A stretch of 63,995 nucleotides of DNA, the filler included, from Ionaspis alba (Eukaryota), in the NCBI GenBank assembly GCA_964255285.1. It is 3 parts of 3 records of this genome, joined end to end, with 100 filler letters (N's around TTAATTAATTAA, not from the genome) between each part and the next. Parts side by side here need not be neighbours in the genome. Positions count along the whole stretch, not along the records: positions 22,587 to 45,054 come from CAXUUL010000207.1; 2 more parts are not named here. One strand, given 5' to 3'. Of this stretch, positions 16,928 to 57,615 are shown one piece after another (position 1 is the first letter of the stretch; the number at the start of each line of letters is the position of its first letter). The notes under the pieces were generated by a model. It ran no database searches and was not told the origin of the DNA. It worked only from the letters and a program-made list of their open reading frames with translations. A program made the position numbers and the translations under genes.

Positions 16928-18853
16928 ATGTTTACTGCTACTCGGCTTCAAGCTGCCACTTACCTTCTCGGAGTCTGTTTATTCTCCATATCATTCTTGG
17001 TCTTTCTCAACTCGACTGTGTCATTTGTCATTACCGACTTGATCAGGCAACGAGAAGGTGTAGGCAATGCAGTGGGGACTCTTGGCTTCGCAGATGAGCT
17101 TGTGGCCTTGATTGCTTGTCCCGTGTGGGGAATATTATCAGATCGCATCGGAGTCAGAACGGTTCGTACCCACTGTATAGATAATGCCTCAAGCTACTGA
17201 ACATTTGCAGGTCTGTGTCTTGGGCTACTTCATTGTTGGTCTAGCTCTATTCTTGTTCGTTCAAGCCAAAAATGTCTATCCTCAATTGCTACTGGCCAGA
17301 CTGTTCTTCAGCATTGGAGGCGCGGCAACTGCGACCATGGTTACTGCGATATTGCCTTCAATGACCGCTACCTCTGTGGGAAACAAAGCCAATCAGACTC
17401 TGGAAAATGATGAACATGCTGCTGGACGTCCTGTGTCGCCTTCCGTGTCTTCTGAGCTTACGATCACGCCTGCGCGGCTCGAAACTCAGTCATCATCTCC
17501 TTCTCGAGAGCAAGAGCAAAAGCAGAAGCCATGGCAGAACGCCTCTCCAACACGCTTGGCAGGCCTGGTAGGCATGTTCACTGGATTCGGGGCTCTTCTA
17601 GCCTTGGGGTTGTTCCTCCCATTGCCTGCGCGATTACAAAAGCTCAATCTCAGTCCTGGCCAGGCATTAGCTGATACATACTATATCGTCGGATCTATAG
17701 CATTGTTGATCGCTTGCTTCTGTTTCTTCGGTCTCATGAAATTGAAAGGCGAGGAAGGCAAGAGCTGGCGGGACATTGGTAGCACTCACCACAACGTGGC
17801 TGATACCTCATCACCGAAGACCCGCAGCAATGCTTACTTTCATCTCTTACTTAAGGCTATACGATTGGGTCTGCGCAACCCCTTGATTGGCCTGGGCTAC
17901 GTCGGTGGCTTTGTCGCACGCGCTTCGTCCGTGGGCATCTCTTTATTCATACCTCTATTCGTAAATGCCTACTTTATCTCGTCTGGGCTCTGTAAAATCG
18001 ATGACCCAGTCGACGTCAAATCTCAATGCAGGGAGGCCTATATCCTTTCAGCCAAGTTGACCGGAACATCTCAGCTCATCGCCCTACTCTTTGCGCCTGC
18101 ATTCGGGTACCTCGCGGATCGATATCGACGATTTCATATACCTCTGATTTCCGCGGCAATCAGCGGAATCGTCGGATACGCCAGCTTCGCATCCTTGAGA
18201 AGTCCTGAATCCAGCGGGAAATCTGGCAGTCCCTTCGTCTTTCTCATCGTGTCCTTACTCGGAATTAGTCAGATTGGCTGTATCGTCTGTAGTTTGGGGC
18301 TCATTGGTCGTGGTATTTCAGATTCTACGGATAAACATGAGGATTCTACATCATTTGGGGATGAAGGGTACACAACATCGAATGGCTCGGGTTCTCGTCG
18401 TCCCGACGTCTCCGAGGATGATCACGNNNNNNNNNNNNNNNNNNNNNNNNNNNNNNNNNNNNNNNNNNNNNNNNNNNNNNNNNNNNNNNNNNNNNNNNNN
18501 NNNNNNNNNNNNNNNNNNNNNNNNNNACAACATCGAATGGCTCGGGTTCTCGTCGTCCCGACGTCTCCGAGGATGATCACGGAGACGAACATCAAGAGTC
18601 AACGGGTTTGTTGAGCCAGGAAGCTTCATTGAACGGATCAATCATACATCTCAAAGGGTCAATTGCCGGAGTTTATTCACTCACTGGAGGAGCTGGAATT
18701 TTGTTACTGGCAAAGCTTGGTGGCTTTCTTTTTGATGCCAAATCGCCTGCCTCCCCTTTCTATATGCTTGCAGGTTTTAACGCCTTACTCCTCCTGGTCG
18801 CAATATTGTGTGGCTTTTACGAATTGGGGCGTACTCGTCTCAGTCTAAAGTAG
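16928..18853 (+). CDS. Major facilitator superfamily transporter (spliced; spans an assembly gap)
   Basis: Many hydrophobic TM segments and MFS loop motifs WGILSDRIGVR and FGYLADRYRR. Collapsing the duplicated 55-nt flanks of the gap restores the frame (DDHGDEHQESTGLLSQEAS...). Confidence 0.88.
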
Positions 18854-31778: not shown

Positions 31779-33419
31779 ATGAAGGCCATCTTTTGCCTCA
31801 TAGTACTTGGCCCACTTATATTGAATCTCGTCTCCGCTGCTCCCCTTCAAGTAAGTTCAGTCCCAGGCATGAAAGCTTTGTTGTCCATACATACCTACTC
31901 ATTTATCTTAGAAGACGGCCACACGCAGCATTGTGGAATCTGGAGATGTGCTTTCTACTAACTGCCCTTGGTGCGTGCCTGACGTGATCTGGAGTGAGGG
32001 ACAGGACAGTAATCACCGTACGGGAGAAGGTGCTCAGCTGGCTTGTCTCGATGAAGGCTCTCGTACAACTGAGCCAACACTCTGTTGCTCCAAGGCTGCT
32101 CGCTTTGGCGTCTGTCTGAGAACGGTGCCAGCTGCCCCGCAGAGGCGCCATGAGGTAACTCACGGTCACCAAACCCTCCGCCGCTTCTCAGGACAGATCG
32201 TTGATAGCCGAAAAGGTTCTGAATCTAGCAACCCGTGCACCACGTGTACCAATCAAGAATTCTTGCCTGCTTGAATCAGAGAGAACCGTCTGTGACGGAT
32301 CGAAGCGTACCGACATGGCCTCCACAGACGGCAGATCTACTTATGGACCCAATCGTCGTCTGCCAGAGCTTGGTGGGCTATTGCCTATGAACGATGCGCA
32401 GAATGTGGCTAGCATTACTGACACCAATGTACAGAACTCCGTAGCCCTAGCTCGGAGAATTCCATGGACACCGCGCGTGACTTTACCAATCGTCTGGCTC
32501 ATCTCGCCCAAGGTCCATGCGCTCTGAACTCAGGAGATCTGGAATGTGGCGATCTGCACTCTGTGCCATGGACTATACTTAATGCGATCTTGCACGAAGC
32601 GCTATTTTGCTACGAGGTAAACTAGTGAAACCTGGGAAAGCCGCCTGCTATACTCACACACTAATCGCATGAAGCATCCGGACGCCGCGATTTGTATTCC
32701 TGTGCGAAATTCTGCCGACGATAGCACGAAACGCAGCGAAAATTCATGGTGCTCAGAGGTGAGCGAGCTAATCTTACACAGGTATCCTCCTCGATGCGAC
32801 ATTTCAGAACTGACTTCCTAGAAGCATCCACGCTTTGCACCGTGCATCCCGACCACGCAAATCGCAGACATGAAACGTGATGAGTCTAGTTGGTGTTCAA
32901 TGGTAATCCAGGACCACCCCAGAAAGACTCTCTGCCTACTTCCCGTTACTAAAATCATCAAGCATCCCGAATTCGCATCCTGTATCCCAGTGGAACAGAT
33001 CAGCCAGACAAAACGAGACAAATCCACTTGGTGCTCGATAGTAAGGATGGGCAACATTCAAATTAACTCTGGTTACGTAAAGTCTCATGACTGACCTGGT
33101 AAAGCATCCCAAGTTCGCGCCTTGTATCCCAGTGAGGGCGACTCACGGCAGCGGTTCGAAGCGTGGCAGCGTTAGTAACCTTACAGTTGGTATCGATGGA
33201 TCTATCGTTAACAAGACGATTTATTAGGCAAATAGCATTTTTTCGAACATGCTACGTATCATCTCACAAGAGGAAGAGCGCCGCAGTGTGAGTAGAAGTC
33301 TATCTCGTTCCGAGCATAATGCCAATCACTGATTGCCCCAGCTTTGCAATGCGTCAACATCGTGCGAGATCTACCCCGGATGCGCAGAATGCATCGGACC
33401 TGGCTTCTATGGCCCATAA
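31779..33419 (+). CDS. Secreted Cys-rich repeat precursor protein (Kex2-processed repeat protein-like), 10-exon model, about 365 aa
   Basis: Signal peptide MKAIFCLIVLGPLILNLVSAAP. Exons 31779-31850, 31912-32154, 32216-32372, 32435-32616, 32675-32758, 32825-32902, 32963-33040, 33105-33170, 33228-33287 and 33342-33419 splice GT-AG into one open frame with repeated WCSxHPxFAxCIP units separated by KR. The exon 2/3 and 3/4 junctions are the least certain. Confidence 0.75.
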
Positions 33420-33987
33420 CTGCTTTTAAGCCCGGCCTTGTCTTCGGGAATCAGGACTTGCTCTCTTGGCTGAACAATTCTCCTGGGTGGACAGTAACAT
33501 CTGGTGGTTCTGGTCGGACTGGCAAGAAGCTATCTGGACCGGGTAGACATGGTTTGGGACGACCATGATGTCTGTAGCTGAATTGGCCGTATCAAACTAG
33601 CATGGAAGAACAGATAGTCGAGTATGCTGGTTACTTAGAGTGAAACGTATTGTGACCTCTCAATTTCCCTGCAGTGACTTGCGAGAAAACGATACTCGAA
33701 GTTCTCATCAAGCATGTCGTTAGAGCAGAACTCTAAAACGTGTGTCACTAAAACAACCAATCCCTGAAACTCTATGACGTCTTGAGCCATGCCATTCCAC
33801 GCACCTACTCTGTCGTTCCAGGAATATTACTTTACTTGCATGCGGATACTAATTAGAACTTAAGCAGCGATCTACTCCTTCTCCAGTCTTGACAGTCCCG
33901 GTCTGCTCCACCTCTGATCTGCCTCGGCCATGTTTGCCAGGTCTTGCTGAACACGCGAATGCGGATGCCACGAAGCCAAACATTATT

Positions 33988-35775
33988 ATGTACAACGTCC
34001 GCTTGGGGCCTCGAACTTTTCGTAGCATCTGCAGCGTTTGTCGTCGAGCAGATAGACTCGATGATATGAAATTAAGCTCTTGCCGCCGCTTCGCTAGCCA
34101 CTCATCGGCTCTCCTTGCCACCTCTGCTTGCCCATTCCGGACCCGCTCCCTCTGCCTCATCATCATCGTTGGGGCCGGTGCGGTATTCTACCAAGGCTCC
34201 GATCGGCTAGGCTTGAGAGAGCTCCAGGCAGAATCACCGCCCGCGGCCACCGAGATTGTGATCGAGAAGTCGATCAAGAGAAATAAAGGACTATCGAAAG
34301 AGGATAATCGCGAGCTGATCAGCTCGCAACATTTGCAGGTCAAAAGAAGCTGGGAAAACCCTGGAGTCTATGCTTGGGGCTCCAACTCAGGACGGGTGGT
34401 TGCGCCAGACTCGGAGGAGGCATTGATCAGATCACCCAGAAGGATACCCTTCTTTGACGGAGTGCTCCTACGAGATCTCAAGCTAGATAGAAACTTTGGT
34501 GCTGCTATCACAGAAAAGGGCGACCTCTTGCAGTGGGGTACGGCATATTCTCTCGACTCCACGGGGCCGACGCCGACCTTGACGGGGAAAGACCTCATCT
34601 CCATCCAGATCTCTCGTGATCGGGTAATTGGCCTTTCTTCGTCTGGAAAGGTCTTTTCGCTCCCAGTTGCCAAGGCGGATCAATTGGCAGGTCCAAAACC
34701 TCGTGAGAGCTGCTGGATCCCGTTCTGGAGTTCGCGATCGCCCATTTCCTACCGCTCCGTACAGCCACAATTATCGGGCTGGTTCGACCGGGTCGTTGCC
34801 ATCTCTTCGGGACTCGAGCATCTCCTACTTCTCACCTCCTCTGGCCGCCTCTTCTCCGCCGCTTCCAGCAGCACTGAATTTCCTTCACGCGGCCAGCTCG
34901 GTGTCCAGGGGTTGACTTGGGAGCATCGACCTCCCGGACCCTACGATCAGCCTCATGAAATCACCACTCTTCGGGGGTTTGACATCCGCTGTATTGCTGC
35001 CGGCGACTATCATTCCCTGGCAGTTGACTCCGAAGGTCGTGTCTTCTCTTTTGGCGACAACTCCGTGGGTCAATTGGGTTTTGATTACAACTCCGAATCG
35101 ACATTTGTCGACTCACCCTCCCTCCTACCCATCCAGAAGCTTTACACCGGCAGCAATCAAGTGGCTCGAGTGACCTCTGTGGCTGCGGGAGGTGTGAACT
35201 CTTTTTTCACTATCGATGCCACCCGGCTGGCGGCTCGGGGCGAAAGAACTCAAACAAGAGGCGTCGGTCGTGTTACAGCCGATACCTGGTCCTGCGGACA
35301 AGGAACCTATGGCGGACTCGGCAACGGTCGTTGGACCCATATGCAAGGCACGCCTACCAAGGTGAAGTCGCTCTCGGGTCTCTATGAATTCGATGAGAAG
35401 CACAATTCGGTCATCCCCATTCGCTTGTCACGTTTCAGCGTGGGCAGTACGCACGCCTCCGCGACCATGGATAACGTCACCCACGTTGGCGCGCATTCAG
35501 GAAGCGGTGAGAACGACACAAATTGGGGTGCCGACGTGCTGTGGTGGGGTGGTAACGAACACTACCAACTAGGTACAGGAAAGCGAAACAACGTCAGCCA
35601 GCCAGTCTACATCGCGCCCCTGGATCTAACGGCGGATAAGGAGAAAGGGAGGCGAGAGGAGCACAGGTTTCAGATCACACCGAAGAAAAGAGTGAATGTC
35701 AATGGGCGGGCGGTGGATCTAGAGCAGAGGATTGAGTGTGGAAGATTTGTCAGTGCAGTGTACTCAGGTGTATAG
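33988..35775 (+). CDS. FMP25: Mitochondrial RCC1-repeat protein Fmp25
   Basis: Intronless ORF: Arg-rich presequence, TM segment, SSQHLQVKRSWENPGVYAWGSNSG, RCC1 repeats (IAAGDYHSLAVD, FSFGDNSVGQLG, WGGNEHYQLGTG). The exact start ATG is uncertain. Confidence 0.85.
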   Translation: MYNVRLGPRTFRSICSVCRRADRLDDMKLSSCRRFASHSSALLATSACPFRTRSLCLIIIVGAGAVFYQGSDRLGLRELQAESPPAATEIVIEKSIKRNKGLSKEDNRELISSQHLQVKRSWENPGVYAWGSNSGRVVAPDSEEALIRSPRRIPFFDGVLLRDLKLDRNFGAAITEKGDLLQWGTAYSLDSTGPTPTLTGKDLISIQISRDRVIGLSSSGKVFSLPVAKADQLAGPKPRESCWIPFWSSRSPISYRSVQPQLSGWFDRVVAISSGLEHLLLLTSSGRLFSAASSSTEFPSRGQLGVQGLTWEHRPPGPYDQPHEITTLRGFDIRCIAAGDYHSLAVDSEGRVFSFGDNSVGQLGFDYNSESTFVDSPSLLPIQKLYTGSNQVARVTSVAAGGVNSFFTIDATRLAARGERTQTRGVGRVTADTWSCGQGTYGGLGNGRWTHMQGTPTKVKSLSGLYEFDEKHNSVIPIRLSRFSVGSTHASATMDNVTHVGAHSGSGENDTNWGADVLWWGGNEHYQLGTGKRNNVSQPVYIAPLDLTADKEKGRREEHRFQITPKKRVNVNGRAVDLEQRIECGRFVSAVYSGV

Positions 35776-36231
35776 GAGGCCGTTGGTGTATCGCTGAGCC
35801 AACCTATAGCTTTCCATGGCGGATCTGAAATTTCAGCTGGAAGGACGAAGCGTTTGAGCTTTATTTTCATCATGAAACTTTTAATTGATCTCTAACTATC
35901 CCCGATGTCTGCCTCTGCCTTGTATGGATCTGTTGCATCAATATATCTTTGTAGCGCTGGCTAATACACTCCGCATTCGCGTGACCGCTGGCTATCTCTG
36001 AGGCACATCTTATATCCGTAGGAAAGGATACGTTCCCAAGCTTTTAATAATAGCGCAAAACTAGGGCAAGGTGGTCAGTACCCTAGGACCTTAGTTCAGC
36101 CCTACAATATCAACCTTCGGTCAATCATTTGTCCAGCAACGAAGAAGTACAAAGTTCATTCAAGATAGAGCATGTTTCAGTTGCATGTAGCCGTCGCCTA
36201 GGCTCTGGCGATCTCGAGTCCCGTTCAGATC

Positions 36232-37573
36232 ATGGAGGCTTCAGACGTGGAGGAAGGGTCGTTACAGAGAACTTTCAAAGATCTTGTCGCTGGTGCGGCC
36301 GGCGGCATTGCCCAGGTTCTCCTCGGTCAGTGAGCAAGATATGTGGTTCTGTTAAATTATCAGTCAGCCTCCGTAGAGCCTTTTAGGTTCTCCAATATTC
36401 GAGCTTTACTATTTTACTTTACAGGCCTTGTTCATCCAGTGTTTCAAAGCTGTCCTTGGTCATTGTTCACCGCCATGATGCTTGCCTACATTCCATGTCG
36501 TACCAATTATTATTCGGGCATCATGTACTAACTTCAGCGCCTTTCGAATGACCAGGACAGCCATTCGGTATGCGCTACTGCACACTTGGCCATGGTCCTC
36601 CTTTTGACAGAGCCAGACATCGTCAAGGTCCGCTTACAGACAACGACTCAATACTCGACCGCGGTTGACTGCGCTAGCAGAATCTTCAAGCACGAAGGGG
36701 CTGCGGCATTTTATAAGGTATCGGAGTGGCTTGCAAGAAATGTGTGGTTCGCTGATCAAATCATACATAGGGCACCTTAACCCCACTTGTGGGCATTGGG
36801 GCTTGTGTACGTATCTAGATCATTTTCTATAGCCACGGTATATGCGTTTAACCTAGCTAGGTCTCCATCCAATTTGGCGCCTTCCACTGGGCCAGGAGGC
36901 GTTTCGAGGCATCAAATGTAGCATCCAAGCATTCCGATCCCAGCCTTTCGTACGGCCAGTATTATCTCTCCGGCGCGTTCGCCGGCATATCCAACTCCAT
37001 GATCTCCGGTCCGATTGAGCACGTCCGCATTCGACTTCAAACACAACCTCATGGCGCGGGTCGGCTCTATAATGGCCCAATCGATTGCATCCGCAAGATT
37101 TCCGCGCATGAAGGCATTTTTCGTGGTCTCTATCGTGGCGAAGCTGTCACGATCTTGCGAGAAGCTCAAGCTTACGGAATCTGGTTCTTGACCTTTGAGT
37201 ACATGATGAATAGGGATGCTGCGAGGAACACGATCAAGAGAGAAGATATCTCCAGCTACAAGGTCGCTGCATACGGTGGGCTGGCAGGCGAAGCTCTGTG
37301 GATGGCAAGTTATCCCTTTGATGTGATCAAGAGCAAGATGCAGAGTGATGGTTTTGGCAAGGACATACGATATCGTAGCATGCGAGACTGCTTTGCTCAA
37401 ACGTGGAGGCTCGAAGGACCGAGGGGTTTTTGGAAAGGAATTGGGCCTACTCTGCTCAGGGCCATGCCTGTTAGTGCTGGTACTTTCGCCGTGTCAGTAC
37501 TGAATACTCCTTCACATGGGAGTGTGCTAAACTTTCTGATAGTGTTGAGGCGACGATGAGAGCTCTGGGGTGA
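36232..37573 (+). CDS. Mitochondrial carrier protein (Ymc1/carnitine-acylcarnitine carrier subfamily), multi-exon
   Basis: Three carrier signatures: PFDIVKVRLQ (assembled through 12-nt microexon 36556-36567), PIEHVRIRLQ and PFDVIKSKMQ. Ends ...VEATMRALG*. Confidence 0.92.
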
Positions 37574-37802
37574 TATCGAAATCCAGGGTTCTTTCGCCGA
37601 CGACCGACCAGGCATTGAATCACCACCTCGCTACGTAGGCGTGACCCGCTCTAGGGCAATTACGTATGGCAAAGGCTCCTTCGCGTGCAATGATGCGAAG
37701 CAACACTGCATCGACCACGCAAGGGAGTGAGTGCATTGTGTTCGAATACACTATGTCATAGGATACAGATGTCAACTGAGCACTGGTACTCTATTTGAGA
37801 GA

Positions 37803-38962
37803 TTACCTAGCACTGATCGCCTCCCCTAATCCAAACTGCATCGGGACATAAGTAATTTGGCCCTTCAGTGCTTTCTCTGTCCGCAATTTCTGTCCTTCTT
37901 CCCCAGCTCTGCCTAGTGTACCCGCGATGACCTGCACGCACCGTAGACTATCGTCATTGGCAGGGATAGGATAGGTGACCCATGTGGGGTCGGCATCTGT
38001 ATCGACAATCCCAATGGTTGGGATATGGTTTAATCCACACTCATGCAACATCACCCAGTTCTCCATCGGGTTCAGACAGACAACTAGATCCGGCTTCAAC
38101 ACCGAATGATCACCCAGTTGTTCTCGGAAACCTTCTAAATCCCGATCGTACTCGTCCACGACTTTGAGCTGACATCCACCAAGTATCTGCTGTCCGTTCG
38201 TGATACTACCCGGGATCCAGCGCTCGAACAGATGACAGCCTCCTGCCAACCTTGCTGCGTTAACAACGCATCTGTCCTGGCCTGGTCTGGTCCCCACAAA
38301 CAGAATCAAGCCGCCTCGTTCCGCGACACCTGAAACCACTCGACATGCCCGCCTCAGGTGCGACGCTGTTACGTCAAGAGATATGATGTGAATCCCCTGA
38401 CGGATTCCAAAGATGTACCGAGAATTCATAGGATTCCAAAGAGAAGTTGAATGTCCGAGATGGGATTGTGATGCTAGTAGGAGCTCCAGAGTGATAGATG
38501 ATGGGGAAGGAGGATTGGAGAGGAGTGCATGAGGCTGGTAATAGGGCGCAATCTCGCTACCGAGAACACCGATAGTGCTTTCTGTGAAAATCAACATGAT
38601 TAACTGACAGCTTGGATATGATTTGGATCAAGGAAGTAATACGTTGGTGTTTAAGGGCATAATGTTTCTGGACGATTGGACCGGACTGGAACTTTGATGT
38701 AGGCCGTGTCACCGGATCCATCCTGCAAGCCGGTGCGATTCTTTGATCCTGTACCCGGGACTCAACAGACCGGATTTCTTTGATACTGTTTTCGACTGCT
38801 GCTTCGATCGCATCTACTCCACTGGCAAACGGCCGAACCCACGACTTGAGTGGATGCAAGGTCAACAAGAGCCCTGCTTAATTGTCAGAATCCGCAGAGT
38901 ACGTTAATGTGACAGTCTCTATCTAGCTAACCTTGCCGTAGTACTGTCTGTCTGATGATCAT
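37803..38962 (-). CDS. MRP4: Mitochondrial ribosomal protein uS2m (Mrp4), spliced
   Basis: LLASQSHLGHSTSLWNPMNSRYIFGIRQGIHIISL, LFVGTR, ERWIPGSITN, IPTIGIVDTDADP and YPIPANDDS are S2 signatures. Confidence 0.93.
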
Positions 38963-39153
38963 GCTGGGAAATTATTACGACGGTCGTGGTTGGAGATGGA
39001 AAATGGCGGTCCAGGTGGGTTTTTGGATGTTTCGTGTGTGACGGGCTTGGCACCCATGTTTGGAAATGATGGGCGCCTTTGCCAGTATCTATTTCCTCTA
39101 AGCACACATGTCTTACCACAATCCACATTCAATGACGATATTTCGTTTCAATA

Positions 39154-41936
39154 ATGTACGACGATCCCTCATACCATGCCTTCGTACCCAGCTCACAGCA
39201 TGAAGCGGAGAAGCCATTGTATATCAGCCACCAACGGAAGACTTCTTTGATTGCACAACCAAGTGTACGCATGGCATTCTAGCGTATTACTCAAATAGTC
39301 TCTAATTGTATACACAGAATAACCCTCAAGCTACCGTTAGCCTGTCACAAGTGAAGTTAAAGACGATCGGAGACCAAGACCGAATTTCTAGCCCACCGAT
39401 AGCAAGTCCTAGCCGTCGTGCCCAAAGTTACTCCGACTTCCACGATGCAGCTCTGCTCGTGCTGCGGGCGAGTCCGCAAACTACAGAGCAGCACAGCAGA
39501 ACATTCGAGAGAAATGTTAGGAACGATCTCGAAATCAGCCACTGGTATCAGAGCCTCGAGGGCGATCTTCATGAAGCCAGCCATGGTAAATACAAGTATG
39601 ACAGTCCAAAACGACCCAGATGACTAAGAACCGGGTGACTGACATGCTAAATCGTCGTTCTTAGAGCCTACCGGAACGAGCTCAACTCTTCGAATTCTTA
39701 CCTATCATCGCTTTCAGGCAGCGCCTCGACCGCCCTCGACCTGCTAACCGAGTTATCTGAATCCTTCAAAATCGTCGGGGCTCAGACAACGGCTTTTCAG
39801 AAACAGTGCGAGAGGATGCTTGCAAGCCAACAAGCTGTTACGGCGCTGTCGGACCAAATGAGACATAACCTTGATTTCTACAATTCTCTTGGGCCGATCA
39901 CAAGGAGACTCAACGCGCCAGGGGCTGGAAACTTTGTCAAGAGTAAAGAATTTTCTGGGATTTTGGCTCGACTTGACGAGTGCCTTGAATACATGGATAC
40001 TCATGTACGGATGTGTCCGGCACTCAAGTGACAAGATCAGCTAATTTGATCAGTCATCACAGAGAGAAGCCGATACCTATCGATCGCGTTACCGACTGCT
40101 CTTGACAAGAGGTCTGACATTAATTCGACTGCACTTCGTGGGTGCCCTACGGGACATCGCACAAGATGTGACGCGGCGAATTGCTGATCCACAATTAACA
40201 GACACGACCATGTCGGCACTTCTCTATGCCAAATTCCGAGTTGGCGCACCGGAGCTGAGGGATATCGCACATGAGGTTCGGCGAAGAGCTGTAGTGCCGG
40301 TGAAGGCTGGACCCGGTCACGACGTTGAGTATCAGAGCTTGATGAATGAGCTATACACGAGTTACTCTGCTACACGAGGCAAACTCGTACTTCCATTGGT
40401 TCGGAAACAGATCACTCAGATCTCTATAGGATCAAATACACCGAAGGACCTAGCATGGTTCGCGCGGAGTAGCATAAGTTACACCAGGGGTGTTTGTTCT
40501 GACGAGTATAACCTCTGGCGCGAATGGTTCGACGACGAGGATGGTCTATTCAATCTTCTCGAATCTGTATGCGAGCCTCTCTACGATCACTTAAGGCCTC
40601 GTATCATCCATGAGAATCAGCTTGCTAAACTGTGCGAGCTTTGCACTTTGATACAGACACGTTATATGCGTGATCAAGATGATGACTCCGAGAGCGTATC
40701 CGTCACCCAATTCGACTTTTCCGCCTTGATCCAACCTCTTTTAGAAGATACGCAGACACGAATAGTCTTCCGTACTCTAGCAATCCTAAAGGATGATATT
40801 CAGAGCTTCAAACCAAAGCCAGAGGACCTTGACTACCCTTCGCACAAGCAGACGCCCGGCTTTTCCCACAACGAGACGAACGGAGCGGCCACTTCGGGCA
40901 GAAAAGTCTCTTTGCCCAGAAACAAATCATCGAACTCCGCAGATTCTGTGTTGCTTGATGACGGCGATATTTTAAAAACACACCACGACTACGATGCTGG
41001 ACCTATACTCATAGATTGCTACCCTACGTTGAAGAGAGCAATTTGGCTGCTCAGTCGCATCTATCGACTCGTGAATGTACGTTCTCATTCTTCGAAACTT
41101 TTGTGCCCACAACTTATCCAGGATATCAATAGTCGTCTGTCTTCGACGATCTTGCGCACCAGATAGTCCACGAGACCACTATGTCGCTACATCGAGCATC
41201 TACCCTCCTTGCTTCACCTGCCAGTGGTTTGGACGCTCAGCTTTTCCTCCTCAAGCACCTTCTTCTCCTCAAGCAGCAGATAGTAGCTTTCGATATCGAA
41301 TACGTGACCCCTGAGGTTGCCTTCGACTTCTCAATTGCCACGAACACTTTTTACGAGTTACGCGACCGGGGAGGACTCTTTGATCCAAGGGTCCTCTGGC
41401 GTTTGGTCGGAGGTGGTCTCCTACCGCGAGTCGTGGAGAATATGCTGGATGCAAAAGTGGAATTAGACGGACGACTTAGAACGGTGATAAATGCTTTCAC
41501 TATAGACTGCGCCTACAGAATAACAGGTACGATGGACGAGTTGGTCACGATGACTCACGTAGAAGGGCCTAAAAGCGTGGTTCAAAAGGTCAAGCTGGCA
41601 GCAGAACGCGAAGCGCCTGCAATACGTCGCAGACTGGATGAATATCTTGACGATATTCGAACGAAGGAGACGCTGATCGGCGCCGTTCGAACCCAAATGG
41701 TGCAGAACTATGAGGCTTTCTACGAATGGTCAATGACTCAGAAGAAAGCGATTGAAGAAGCAGTGAGTACGAAGGGCAAGGGGAGGGGGGATGATCTATG
41801 GGATGTTGATACTCTCGCCGAATGGTCTGAAGAAGTCTTCCAGGCCCAACAGCGAGAGCATGAGGACGTAATGGCCAGAGGAGCCCGCCGGAGTCCGGGT
41901 ATCAATAGAAGTATGACTCGCAACGGGAGCATTTGA
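39154..41936 (+). CDS. COG3: Conserved oligomeric Golgi complex subunit 3 (Sec34), spliced
   Basis: LGPITRRLNAPG, RLDECLEYM, YRSRYRLLLTRGLTLIR, EPLYDHLRPRIIHE, CYPTLKRAIWLLSRIYRLVN and AQLFLLKHLLLLKQQI. Confidence 0.93.
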
Positions 41937-54635: not shown

Positions 54636-56920
54636 TCAAAATGCTCTTGCATATACCGCAACGGTATTTGAGGTATATATTCCGCACTCCCCCGTTCCGG
54701 AATTGCACAGCGCACAATTGTTGTCGGGAGCCTGCCCATTCATTAAAGTGGTGATAGTGACGTAATTGAGTGAGCTTCCGCAATAGCAATCCCCTGCTGT
54801 CGTGCCATTGTTGACCGTACCGAAAAATGTTGTGCCTAGTGCAAGACAAGCGGCGGAGCACTGGGCGTTGACGCTCCCCGTGTATGTGGCTTGGAAATTT
54901 GAAAGTACTTTGCCAGTAAGTATCGTGGGTAGACCTATACCCAAACCCGTTAGTATGTGACAAGACGATTGCCAGCTGGAACAATTTTACCGGTCTGATA
55001 GAAGCAACCTGAGACAAAAGTAGTTAGCAAATCGTAAGGGCTGAGCTCCTGCAGGGAGGGATTAAATACCGAGGTATGAATACGTGATGCCAGCTAAAGT
55101 TATAAATCAGCACATTAAACAGGCCTCACTCTCAGATCAACACTTACTAGGACCTCGGGGGCCCGTGGCGCCTGGTGATGCTTGTCAGAAACTCGACGTG
55201 GCAAGCCAATGAAGGGACGACTCACCTGTCAAACCAGTAGGTCCTATTGGACCGGTAGGGCCGATCGGTCCAGTCGGCCCATCTGCTCCTGCTGGTCCTG
55301 CTGGTCCTGCCACACCTGTTGCACCGGGTAACCCACTTAGTCCGCTCACGCCAGTCGGTCCAGTCGGTCCGATCTGCCCCGATATACCGCTTATTCCAGT
55401 AGGCCCAGCCACCCCTTGCGGTCCTGTGGGACCCGTAGGTCCTGCCACACCGTTCAAGCCACTCAAACCGCTGATACCCTGTGGCCCCTGAGGCCCAGTC
55501 AACCCTTGTGGTCCTGTTGCACCTGTAGGACCTGCGACGCCGTTCAAGCCACTCAAACCACTGATACCCTGGGGTCCCTGAGGGCCAGTCAATCCTTGCG
55601 GTCCCGTAGCTCCNNNNNNNNNNNNNNNNNNNNNNNNNNNNNNNNNNNNNNNNNNNNNNNNNNNNNNNNNNNNNNNNNNNNNNNNNNNNNNNNNNNNNNN
55701 NNNNNNNNNNNNNCACTGATACCCTGGGGTCCCTGAGGGCCAGTCAATCCTTGCGGTCCCGTAGCTCCTGTGGCACCTGCTAAACCACTTAAACCACTCA
55801 AACCACTGATACCCTGGGGTCCTTGGGGGCCGGTCAACCCTTGCGGTCCCGTAGCACCTGTCGGGCCCGCTACTCCATTCAAGCCGCTGAGACCACTAAA
55901 ACCTTGAGGTCCTTGAGGCCCGGTCAGTCCTTGGGGTCCTGTAGCTCCCGTAGGGCCTGCTGCACCATTTAAGCCGCTCAGACCGCTAACTCCCTGAGGT
56001 CCTTGAGGCCCAGTCAGTCCTTGGGGTCCCGTAGCTCCCGTAGGACCTGCTACGCCAGTCAAGCCACTTAAGCCGCTCACACCCTGAGCGCCTTGAGGTC
56101 CTACGGCCCCAGTGGGTCCTATGGGGCCAGTGGGTCCTGTAGGCCCTGATGGGCCGGGAGGGCCGTTTGGAGCAATGTTTGATGCGCATACGAGGTTTAG
56201 ATCACTGACATAGAGATCAACAAAGACACACCCGACAGGGTTACCGCCCAGAGAAAAGACTGCGACCAAGGTGTTATCGCTCATTACGCAGAACAGCGCA
56301 TTGCCGTTAAAGAAGTTGGGGTTGACCCATTGGAGAACACCGTTCCGTCCGAGCGAGAAACTTTGCGTTATGGCTAATGGAAGCGAATGTGGTTGTAAGA
56401 TGGTGAAGTTGACATTGTTGGGAGCTGAGTATTGCAAGACAGTGCCGTTGCTCAATAGCCAGAAGAACTCCCCGTTCACTATGGCATAAGTCCCAGCATC
56501 GGCACAAGATGATGTTATTCTGTTGTGAATACCAAGATAACTGATTTTTGTCTGCCGACGATTATTTCTTTTCCGCGGATCCTTGACAGTCAAAACGAAA
56601 GGAGCACCACTGGCAATTGCGGTTGGTCTTGTTGCTGATAGAGACACGGTTTTGATGCTCGAAATCTTGGAGGTATACGTTGTAGTGAGGTCTATACTTG
56701 TCGGCGCGTTCCTAACGGTTATGGTGAGTTGGGGGTTGACTTCGAAGGTCGTATTCGATAGAACGTTTGTGTTAATAGCCACAGTATTTTCATAGACAAG
56801 AACCTTGGTAATTACTCGAGAACATCCTCCAATGGTATGGGTACTGGTCCACGCCAAACCCGGAGCAGCGAGACCAAGAAAGCAGAGGAGGTCGAAGTAT
56901 AACAACGAACGGAGCAGCAT
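54636..56920 (-). CDS. Secreted collagen-like protein: signal peptide, N-terminal beta-rich domain (DUF7908-like), about 90 Gly-X-Y triplets, C-terminal WSC domain
   Basis: Signal peptide [24 protein letters not shown] and an uninterrupted G-X-Y tract at about 56163-55148. Small 3' exons splice to YLGCFYQT|GLP...CSAAC...FFG...CYCG...C..C...CG...AVY*, matching the WSC pattern. Confidence 0.85.
55226..56163 (-). repeat. Coding tandem repeat, 90-nt / 30-aa collagen unit ([30 protein letters not shown])
   Basis: About five near-complete copies plus degenerate flanking triplets, interrupted by gap 55614-55713. Confidence 0.9.
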
Positions 56921-57615
56921 ATCGAGAAGGACTCGCAGAAAGACACTGGAAAGCAGCAGAATAGAAATGCAGAACGCTGGAGCGCAGCAAAACAAATGCA
57001 GAGCGACACATGAGAACATCAATAGTCCAACGCAAACGTGTATAGCAGAAGACGCAAGCAGGGAATCGAGTGGATATAGCGATGTATTGCTCAGAACAGC
57101 ATAAGGAATTTACTGGAATTCGTGATTTATGCATGGATGCATTCCAGCAGGGAGATGATCAACAAACTACTGTGACACGAAAGATTAATGTGTCCTTCAA
57201 AGAGATGCTTCGATGTCTGAAGGATCATAGACAGCTACCAGGAGCTTGTAGACGTATACTTAAGATGATGTTCCACAGTATATAGTTCGATTCGAGGCGC
57301 ATGGTGGGTGTATTGGTAACCTTTGCATTTCCTTCCCTGGCCATGGATGACCATGTGGCGGGCACATGCAGAAAGTACAGTCTCATTAGATCCATATCCT
57401 AGAACGATCACCAACCATGACCAACCATAAGAAGATGAGGTAGTGGATGTGCGCGAACACGGACATCATTACAAAACGTTTGCAGGTCGAGCCTACTTGC
57501 AAGGCTGGAAGCTCTAAGCGAGTGCCGAGGTACAGTGATGGAGGGATCAGTCTAAAATGCCAACCTCTTCCTCGACAAGTACCAACCCATAGAAGTGTCG
57601 CATTCTCCCAGCACC

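What the first reader, a model, noticed from the sequence alone, without database searches (positions are those of the whole stretch)
32617..33104. Repeat units expanded as exon+intron modules, with an intron splitting each peptide core at the same codon
Seen: four phase-0 introns (32617-32674, 32759-32824, 32903-32962, 33041-33104) each fall between C-x-x and H-P. All four end in the less common AAG acceptor followed by CATCC, and the exons between them are 84, 78 and 78 nt. Intron bodies are diverged while the exon motif is kept. Inference: the units arose by old tandem duplication of an exon/intron cassette, with selection on the peptide. Each core is assembled from two exons, so exon skipping would stay in frame and give chimeric C-x8-C loops, a possible combinatorial peptide-diversification mechanism.
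Basis: partly seen in the sequence, partly recalled or inferred. Interest (0 to 1): 0.7.

Follow-up and report, generated by a model that had tools for sequence, protein, structure and literature searches.

The report
Intron-split fungal secreted repeat-peptide precursor
A fungal gene that grew by copying one exon together with its intron most likely makes a secreted protein that is cut into three small disulfide-looped peptides; this is a known kind of gene, and the proposed reshuffling of the peptides by exon skipping has no support.

Summary
The four phase-0 introns lie at the stated coordinates, between C-x-x and H-P, and end in AAG|CATCC. They fit an 8-exon, 338-residue model (31779-33227): a signal-peptide-like start, a six-cysteine domain, then three Lys-Arg-bounded 24-26-residue peptides with one W-C-x8-C loop each, and a fourth loop in a longer fragment. 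Old exon+intron duplication under purifying selection is supported: synonymous sites are saturated, pN is 0.11-0.26, the introns keep faint mutual likeness, and AAG is only about 10-18% of control acceptors. The model meets the KEP criteria I could test. It is not the alpha-pheromone, which lies on another contig, and no UstYa gene is near. Exon skipping would stay in frame, but that follows from copying a phase-0 cassette, and skipping is rare in fungi. Unexplained: the third intron is in frame, stop-free, weakly signalled and reads like a degenerate half-repeat (1 of 8000 random pieces, post hoc). One homologue of the N-terminal domain was found, none of the repeats. Splicing, processing and function are inferred, not shown.

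The parts
31779..31850 (+). Exon 1 (predicted): ATG and signal-peptide-like hydrophobic stretch, about 20 residues
   Evidence: Kyte-Doolittle 19-residue mean 2.38 at the start, at most 1.05 elsewhere; SignalP not available
31851..31911 (+). Intron 1 (predicted, 61 nt, phase 0, GTAAGT..TAG; an AAG acceptor 3 nt further is possible)
31912..32154 (+). Exon 2: six-cysteine domain of no known family
   Evidence: homologue P0001, 52% identity over residues 14-76 of the 120-residue query, E 1.8e-15, all six Cys kept; no Pfam, PDB or Atlas match
32155..32215 (+). Intron 2 (tentative, 61 nt, phase 0, GTAACT..AAG, weak branch TTGAT); links the signal peptide to the repeats
   Evidence: the least secure junction of the model
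32216..32372 (+). Exon 3 (tentative): linker with one Lys-Arg and one Arg-Arg site
   Evidence: best coding score in the model frame
32373..32434 (+). Intron 3 (predicted, 62 nt, phase 1, GTGGGC..CAG, branch CTGAC)
32435..32616 (+). Exon 4: ends in the first C-x-x half-loop
32617..32674 (+). Repeat intron A (58 nt, phase 0, GTAAAC..AAG)
   Evidence: stops if retained
32675..32758 (+). Repeat exon (84 nt): H-P-x2-A-x-C-I-P, spacer, Lys-Arg, W-C-S-x
32759..32824 (+). Repeat intron B (66 nt, phase 0, GTGAGC..TAG-AAG tandem acceptor)
   Evidence: in-frame stop if retained
32825..32902 (+). Repeat exon (78 nt)
32903..32962 (+). Repeat intron C (60 nt, phase 0, GTAATC..AAG, non-consensus branch CTAAA); in frame, stop-free, translation resembles the H-P-x4-C half-repeat
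32963..33040 (+). Repeat exon (78 nt)
33041..33104 (+). Repeat intron D (64 nt, phase 0, GTAAGG..AAG)
   Evidence: frameshift and stop if retained
33105..33227 (+). Last exon: fourth H-P-x4-C half, Lys-Arg, 20-residue tail, stop TAG at 33225-33227

Best explanation
A single-copy, lineage-restricted fungal gene for a secreted Kex2-processed repeat protein (KEP). Seen in the DNA: four homologous phase-0 introns, repeat exons under purifying selection, Lys-Arg sites. Inferred steps: all seven introns are spliced constitutively; the 338-residue precursor enters the ER by its signal peptide, where each C-x8-C pair forms a disulfide; Kex2 cuts after Lys-Arg in the Golgi and Kex1 trims the basic residues; three 24-26-residue looped peptides are released, with a longer fragment that bears the fourth loop and an N-terminal six-cysteine domain. 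The peptides most likely act unmodified outside the cell as signalling or partner-interaction ligands, in the manner of the two-cysteine alpha-pheromones but with another target (about 45% among functions; defence or antimicrobial about 25%; structural or other about 30%; these three figures are my judgement). The shared intron position, phase and AAG acceptor are inherited from one ancestral exon+intron cassette copied in tandem. AAG may persist because the commonest change at that base (A to G) would destroy the acceptor (inference).
For: Intron anatomy. All 8 model exons score best in the model's frame under a codon model trained on 63 long ORFs of this genome (a weak model). pS saturated, pN low. 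Residual likeness among the four introns: quartet p 0.002-0.004, pair A-C p 0.004 against 1275 control pairs. KEP criteria of PMC6339444 (section read) and PMC7329392 (section read): 8 fragments, 3 alike, 23% of the protein, no later hydrophobic segment. A proprotein-convertase P domain, as in Kex2, is in the genome. The N-terminal domain has a homologue in another assembly. The repeat motif occurs only here in the genome: 4 matches, control 0.
Against: No transcript or peptide was seen. Intron 2, which joins the signal peptide to the repeats, has a weak branch site; if it is not spliced, the first two exons end at their own stop (ORF to 32274) and the repeats have no signal peptide. SignalP and the published repeat detectors were not run. 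No relative of the repeats was found, so intron positions and unit number could not be compared. pS rests on only 11-16 sites per pair, and the core was chosen for its conservation. Upstream introns 1-3 also show slight likeness to A-D (for example C with intron 1, p 0.017), so composition may add to the intron signal. The half-repeat-like reading of intron C is not explained.
Confidence: 0.68

Rival explanations
1. Same precursor, but intron C is often retained and is functional: it carries a degenerate extra half-repeat, so retention turns one 24-residue loop peptide into a 44-residue, three-cysteine peptide (or two pieces if its Arg-Lys is cut). A milder form: the ancestral intron was born from a duplicated repeat copy, and intron C keeps the trace without function.
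For: Intron C is in frame and stop-free, with the only non-consensus branch of the four. Its translation matches the exon half better than 51 of 51 control introns; 5 of 20000 stop-free 20-mers and 1 of 8000 random pieces in three frames reach its score. Intron retention is the main alternative splicing in F. graminearum. Intron birth by tandem duplication or intronisation is described (PMC3443670, passages).
Against: Noticed after the fact. Without the one-residue gap 45 of 8000 pieces reach the score (about 0.02 over four introns). No DNA-level likeness between introns and exons (p 0.35-0.83). Introns A, B and D show no significant match (951, 6835 and 7952 of 8000). One in-frame stop-free intron among four is not rare by itself (estimate). 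An odd cysteine would be left unpaired.
Confidence: 0.17
2. One reading: exon skipping joins C-x-x halves to later H-P halves and yields chimeric loops as a combinatorial peptide library.
For: All four introns are phase 0 and the exons are multiples of three, so any skip stays in frame and six further loops are possible. The donors and AAG acceptors are not the commonest ones. Tandem exon copies go with alternative splicing in animals (PMC3342872, passages).
Against: Frame compatibility is a by-product of copying one cassette. Skipping is rare in fungi, 4 genes against 211, and not biased to frame-preserving exons outside animals. Skips would mean removing 202-488 nt as one intron where most control introns, scanned in a 48-90 nt range, are 50-70 nt. 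Chimeras differ from native loops at few residues, and each skip loses a whole peptide.
Confidence: 0.07
3. Two separate products or a decaying gene: exons 1-2 make a small secreted cysteine-rich protein on their own, and the repeat part is not secreted or no longer expressed.
For: Intron 2 is weak and exon 2's frame stays open to 32274. Likeness to P0001 ends at the sixth cysteine.
Against: Only about 160 nt lie between that stop and exon 4. All exons join into one frame without a stop and score best in it. The Lys-Arg sites and Cys pairs are kept while synonymous sites are saturated, which fits a secreted, still selected product.
Confidence: 0.08

Closest known systems
Kex2-processed repeat proteins (KEPs), Le Marquer 2019 (PMC6339444) and Umemura 2020 (PMC7329392)
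   Same: Signal-peptide-like start, at least three similar fragments between dibasic sites, repeats over 15% of the protein, no relatives (2560 of Umemura's 7878 KEPs stand alone; abstract).
   Different: A long N-terminal part with a six-cysteine domain; one intron inside each core. The main texts of both papers hold the words intron and exon 0 times. Six short motifs of this gene gave no hit in the supplements held as text.
Pezizomycotina alpha-factor pheromone precursors
   Same: Kex2-bounded repeats with W-C at the start of a two-cysteine loop.
   Different: No XA/XP dipeptides after Lys-Arg, cores of 24-26 instead of 9-14 residues, no GQ or PG turn (criteria from PMC10569646, section and passages). 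The genome's own alpha-factor gene is on contig C100.
Dikaritin RiPP precursors (ustiloxin UstA, phomopsin, epichloecyclin GigA)
   Same: Imperfect repeats of about 26-28 residues released by kexin (GigA: 27-residue repeats, variable in number; PMC10540207, passages).
   Different: No Tyr in the three cores and no UstYa/DUF3328 or tyrosinase gene found in the window; neighbours are housekeeping genes.
Internal gene duplication of exon+intron units; tandem exon duplication
   Same: Repeats that carry their intron along, with the same phase and position.
   Different: In animals copied exons often become mutually exclusive alternatives; here each core needs two neighbouring exons and nothing shows alternative use.

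Membership tests
KEP | N-terminal signal peptide | tested here: inconclusive
   Hydrophobic stretch at residues 1-20, mean 2.38; SignalP not available; link to the repeats rests on predicted intron 2
KEP | No transmembrane segment | tested here: met
   Highest 19-residue hydropathy after residue 25 is 1.05 (a proxy for TMHMM)
KEP | At least four fragments after cutting at KR/RR, at least three alike and 8-100 residues long | tested here: met
   8 fragments, three alike of 24, 24 and 26 residues; judged by alignment, the papers' own detectors were not run
KEP | Repeats cover at least 15% of the protein | tested here: met
   23%
KEP | Kex2-type protease in the organism | tested here: met
   One PF01483 match over the cut-off in a 690-residue frame on contig C49; the whole gene was not examined
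KEP | Peptides are actually released | not testable with these tools
   needs peptidomics
alpha-factor pheromone precursor | STE13 dipeptides (XA/XP) after the dibasic site | tested here: not met
   Second residues are E, E, K
alpha-factor pheromone precursor | 9-14-residue mature repeat, mostly with GQ or PG | tested here: not met
   24-26 residues, neither dipeptide in the loops; a typical alpha-factor gene lies on C100
dikaritin RiPP precursor | UstYa/DUF3328 gene among the neighbours | tested here: not met
   15 matches on 8 other contigs; 0 of the 12 fetched loci overlap or match the window; 0 of 77 window ORFs of 130 residues or more hit the family
dikaritin RiPP precursor | Tyr in the core for the ether ring | tested here: not met
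   0 Tyr in the three cores
exon-skipping diversification | Skipped isoforms exist as transcripts and peptides | not testable with these tools
   no transcript data at hand; only frame compatibility shown

The most novel reading that the evidence does not exclude
A fungal multi-peptide precursor whose peptide set is changed by splicing: the third repeat intron hides an in-frame degenerate half-repeat kept by selection, so retention (and perhaps skipping of the phase-0 exons) switches the disulfide loops that Kex2 releases.
Probability: 0.15. Interest if true: 0.62.

Novelty: new member of a known kind. Interest (0 to 1): 0.3.

Why it matters
As it stands it adds an orphan, cysteine-looped KEP with three or four candidate peptides of unknown target. 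It also shows why such genes are easy to miss: the cores exist only after splicing, so six-frame and ORF-based searches do not see them. My paper searches turned up no description of one-intron-per-core KEPs, but three unchecked notes of this scan report the same layout in other genomes, so it is probably a common, little-described route of KEP growth. If splicing did change the peptide set, it would be a new level of control for fungal peptide precursors, testable with one RT-PCR.

Tried and rejected
RNA: no RNA holder listed. Run X1 holds the stretch identically and may be this DNA's source; X2 gave only short, low-depth, identical pieces; neither informs on splicing or unit number. Homologue searches that found nothing: repeat frame against proteins of 155-2000 residues; N-terminal alignment against 189-2000 residues (1093 candidates, none scored); repeat-exon alignment against 71-2000 residues (49 candidates, none scored); Atlas twice; PDB sequences; Pfam (only weak sub-cut-off hits); JGI metagenomes with the N-terminal alignment (322 stretches, none confirmed); own genome, self only. 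These blanks are weak evidence. P0002 is a repetitive protein with a compositional match and was dropped. Synteny: 0 of 80 loci of the downstream RCC1-like gene hold a match to the model or the upstream CBS gene; many of these loci are short. The DNA around P0001 could not be reached, so the one orthologue's introns were not seen. Structure prediction of the six-cysteine domain failed (pLDDT 37.6), so no fold search was run. The first two ab initio intron scans were too noisy or too strict; the ORF-flanked scan still holds an estimated third to half false introns, hence the background subtraction. A bacterial promoter scan was irrelevant. Rejected readings: alpha-pheromone, dikaritin precursor, AAG as a coding Lys in all four units (no upstream AG after the branch in three of four). 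Papers: passages or single sections only, as cited; none read whole; other hits were seen as search listings. Figures and any supplement tables held as pictures were not visible, and the text held for PMC6339444's supplements was small (89,120 characters), so a listed relative could have been missed.

Full report
The observation. Each begins GT, ends AAG, is followed by CATCC, is phase 0 and splits C-x-x from H-P; the exons between are 84, 78 and 78 nt. A branch-like pentamer lies 9-10 nt before each acceptor. In 862 kb of this genome, introns predicted from a strong donor, a branch site and open flanking frames are mostly 50-70 nt (scan range 48-90) with the branch 9-12 nt from the end; after subtracting a reversed-donor control, AAG is about 10-18% of acceptors. 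Four of four is therefore not chance if the introns were independent. A pattern written for this arrangement occurs 7 times in 1.6 Mb of control sequence and 4 times in 700 nt here. All of this is prediction from DNA.

The gene. The window is fungal, of the filamentous ascomycete type: the genome has an alpha-factor gene, Ste2 and UstYa genes. The repeats are the 3' half of a gene between a CBS-domain gene and an RCC1-like gene. With three more introns upstream, an ATG at 31779 opens one 338-codon frame that stops at 33225-33227. All 8 exons score best in that frame under a weak codon model trained on this genome. The product has a hydrophobic first 20 residues and no later hydrophobic segment, a six-cysteine domain, and dibasic sites that give 8 fragments. 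Three fragments of 24, 24 and 26 residues are alike, each with W-C-S-x joined across the intron to H-P-x-F-A-x-C-I-P; net charges are -2, -4 and +2. A fourth loop ends an 85-residue fragment. The six-cysteine domain has one homologue among 1.84 billion proteins (P0001, 52%, E 1.8e-15), an unnamed sequence seen on 3 contigs. The weakest link is intron 2 (32155-32215), on which secretion of the repeats depends.

Origin. Between cores, synonymous sites are saturated (pS 0.78-0.93 on 11-12 sites) while pN is 0.11-0.26; the two 78-nt exons give 0.97 and 0.27. The four introns are more alike than random quartets from 51 control introns (p 0.002 for bodies, 0.004 whole; A-C 0.004), though three of six pairs are unremarkable and composition may contribute. 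The shared phase, position and AAG need no further cause.

Exon skipping. Any skip stays in frame and six more loops could form. But this is automatic for a copied phase-0 cassette. In F. graminearum 4 genes showed skipping and 211 intron retention (PMC3577648, passages). Across 65 eukaryotes the frame-preserving bias of skipping was found in animals and lacking in nearly all others (PMC6142364, passages). I put functional skipping at about 7%. It is untested, not refuted.

An unexplained detail. The third repeat intron is 60 nt, in frame, stop-free, and has the only non-consensus branch site of the four. Its translation contains H-P-x4-C followed by residues like those of the exons. It scores above all 51 control introns; 1 of 8000 random pieces read in three frames reaches it, 45 of 8000 without gaps. 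There is no DNA-level likeness to the exons, the other three introns show no significant match, and I noticed it after the fact. It may be chance, a relic of an intron born from a repeat copy (mechanisms in PMC3443670, passages), or a selected retained-intron form. Retention here is a more plausible route to variant peptides than skipping.

What it is. The model meets the testable criteria for Kex2-processed repeat proteins (PMC6339444, methods section; PMC7329392, methods section), and a Kex2-type P domain is in the genome. It is not the alpha-factor: it lacks STE13 dipeptides and the GQ/PG turn (criteria: PMC10569646), and a typical alpha-factor precursor with four W-C-x3-G-Q-x-C repeats lies on contig C100. 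It is not a dikaritin precursor: no Tyr in the cores and no UstYa gene found in the window. Most likely it is spliced constitutively, secreted, oxidised to one disulfide per core, and cut by Kex2/Kex1 into looped peptides that act as extracellular ligands; the processing route is established for KEPs (PMC9769878, passages), its use here and the function are inferred.

Relatives and novelty. No relative of the repeats was found (0 of 80 syntenic-candidate loci; no motif hit in the supplements held for two KEP surveys). Stand-alone KEPs are common (2560 of 7878; abstract). My searches found no paper on one intron per KEP core, while three unchecked notes of this scan describe that layout in other genomes; these are leads, not support.

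Verdict. Observation confirmed; duplication and selection supported; skipping unsupported. A new member of a known kind, interest 0.3. The most novel reading, splicing-switched peptides, has about 15% probability and would deserve about 0.6.

Noticed in passing
G000:C100:5743-6197 (+); L123:1406-2009: Typical alpha-factor pheromone precursor with four W-C-x3-G-Q-x-C repeats, XA/XP spacers and Lys-Arg sites; its one intron lies in a spacer, not in a core.
   Followed up: partly
window 32903-32962: In-frame, stop-free intron whose translation resembles the exon half-repeat.
   Followed up: yes
window 33853-41933 and loci L003-L082: In 16 of 80 loci from other fungi the RCC1-like gene lies head-to-head with COG3; here a mitochondrial carrier and a ribosomal S2 gene lie between the two and the RCC1-like gene points the other way.
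   Followed up: no
window 55188-57109 (-): Collagen-repeat gene with DUF7908, built of 90-nt tandem units and broken by an assembly gap.
   Followed up: no
window 18300-18600: The same short coding stretch stands on both sides of the N gap at 18427-18526 in an MFS transporter gene, probably an unmerged overlap of the assembly.
   Followed up: no
G000 contigs C24, C99, C122, C702, C745, C1123, C1126, C1150: 15 UstYa/DUF3328 matches on 8 contigs, apparently two genes on C1150: candidate peptide-tailoring loci elsewhere in this genome.
   Followed up: no
window 31912-32154: Six-cysteine domain of no known family with one homologue (P0001); structure prediction failed.
   Followed up: partly
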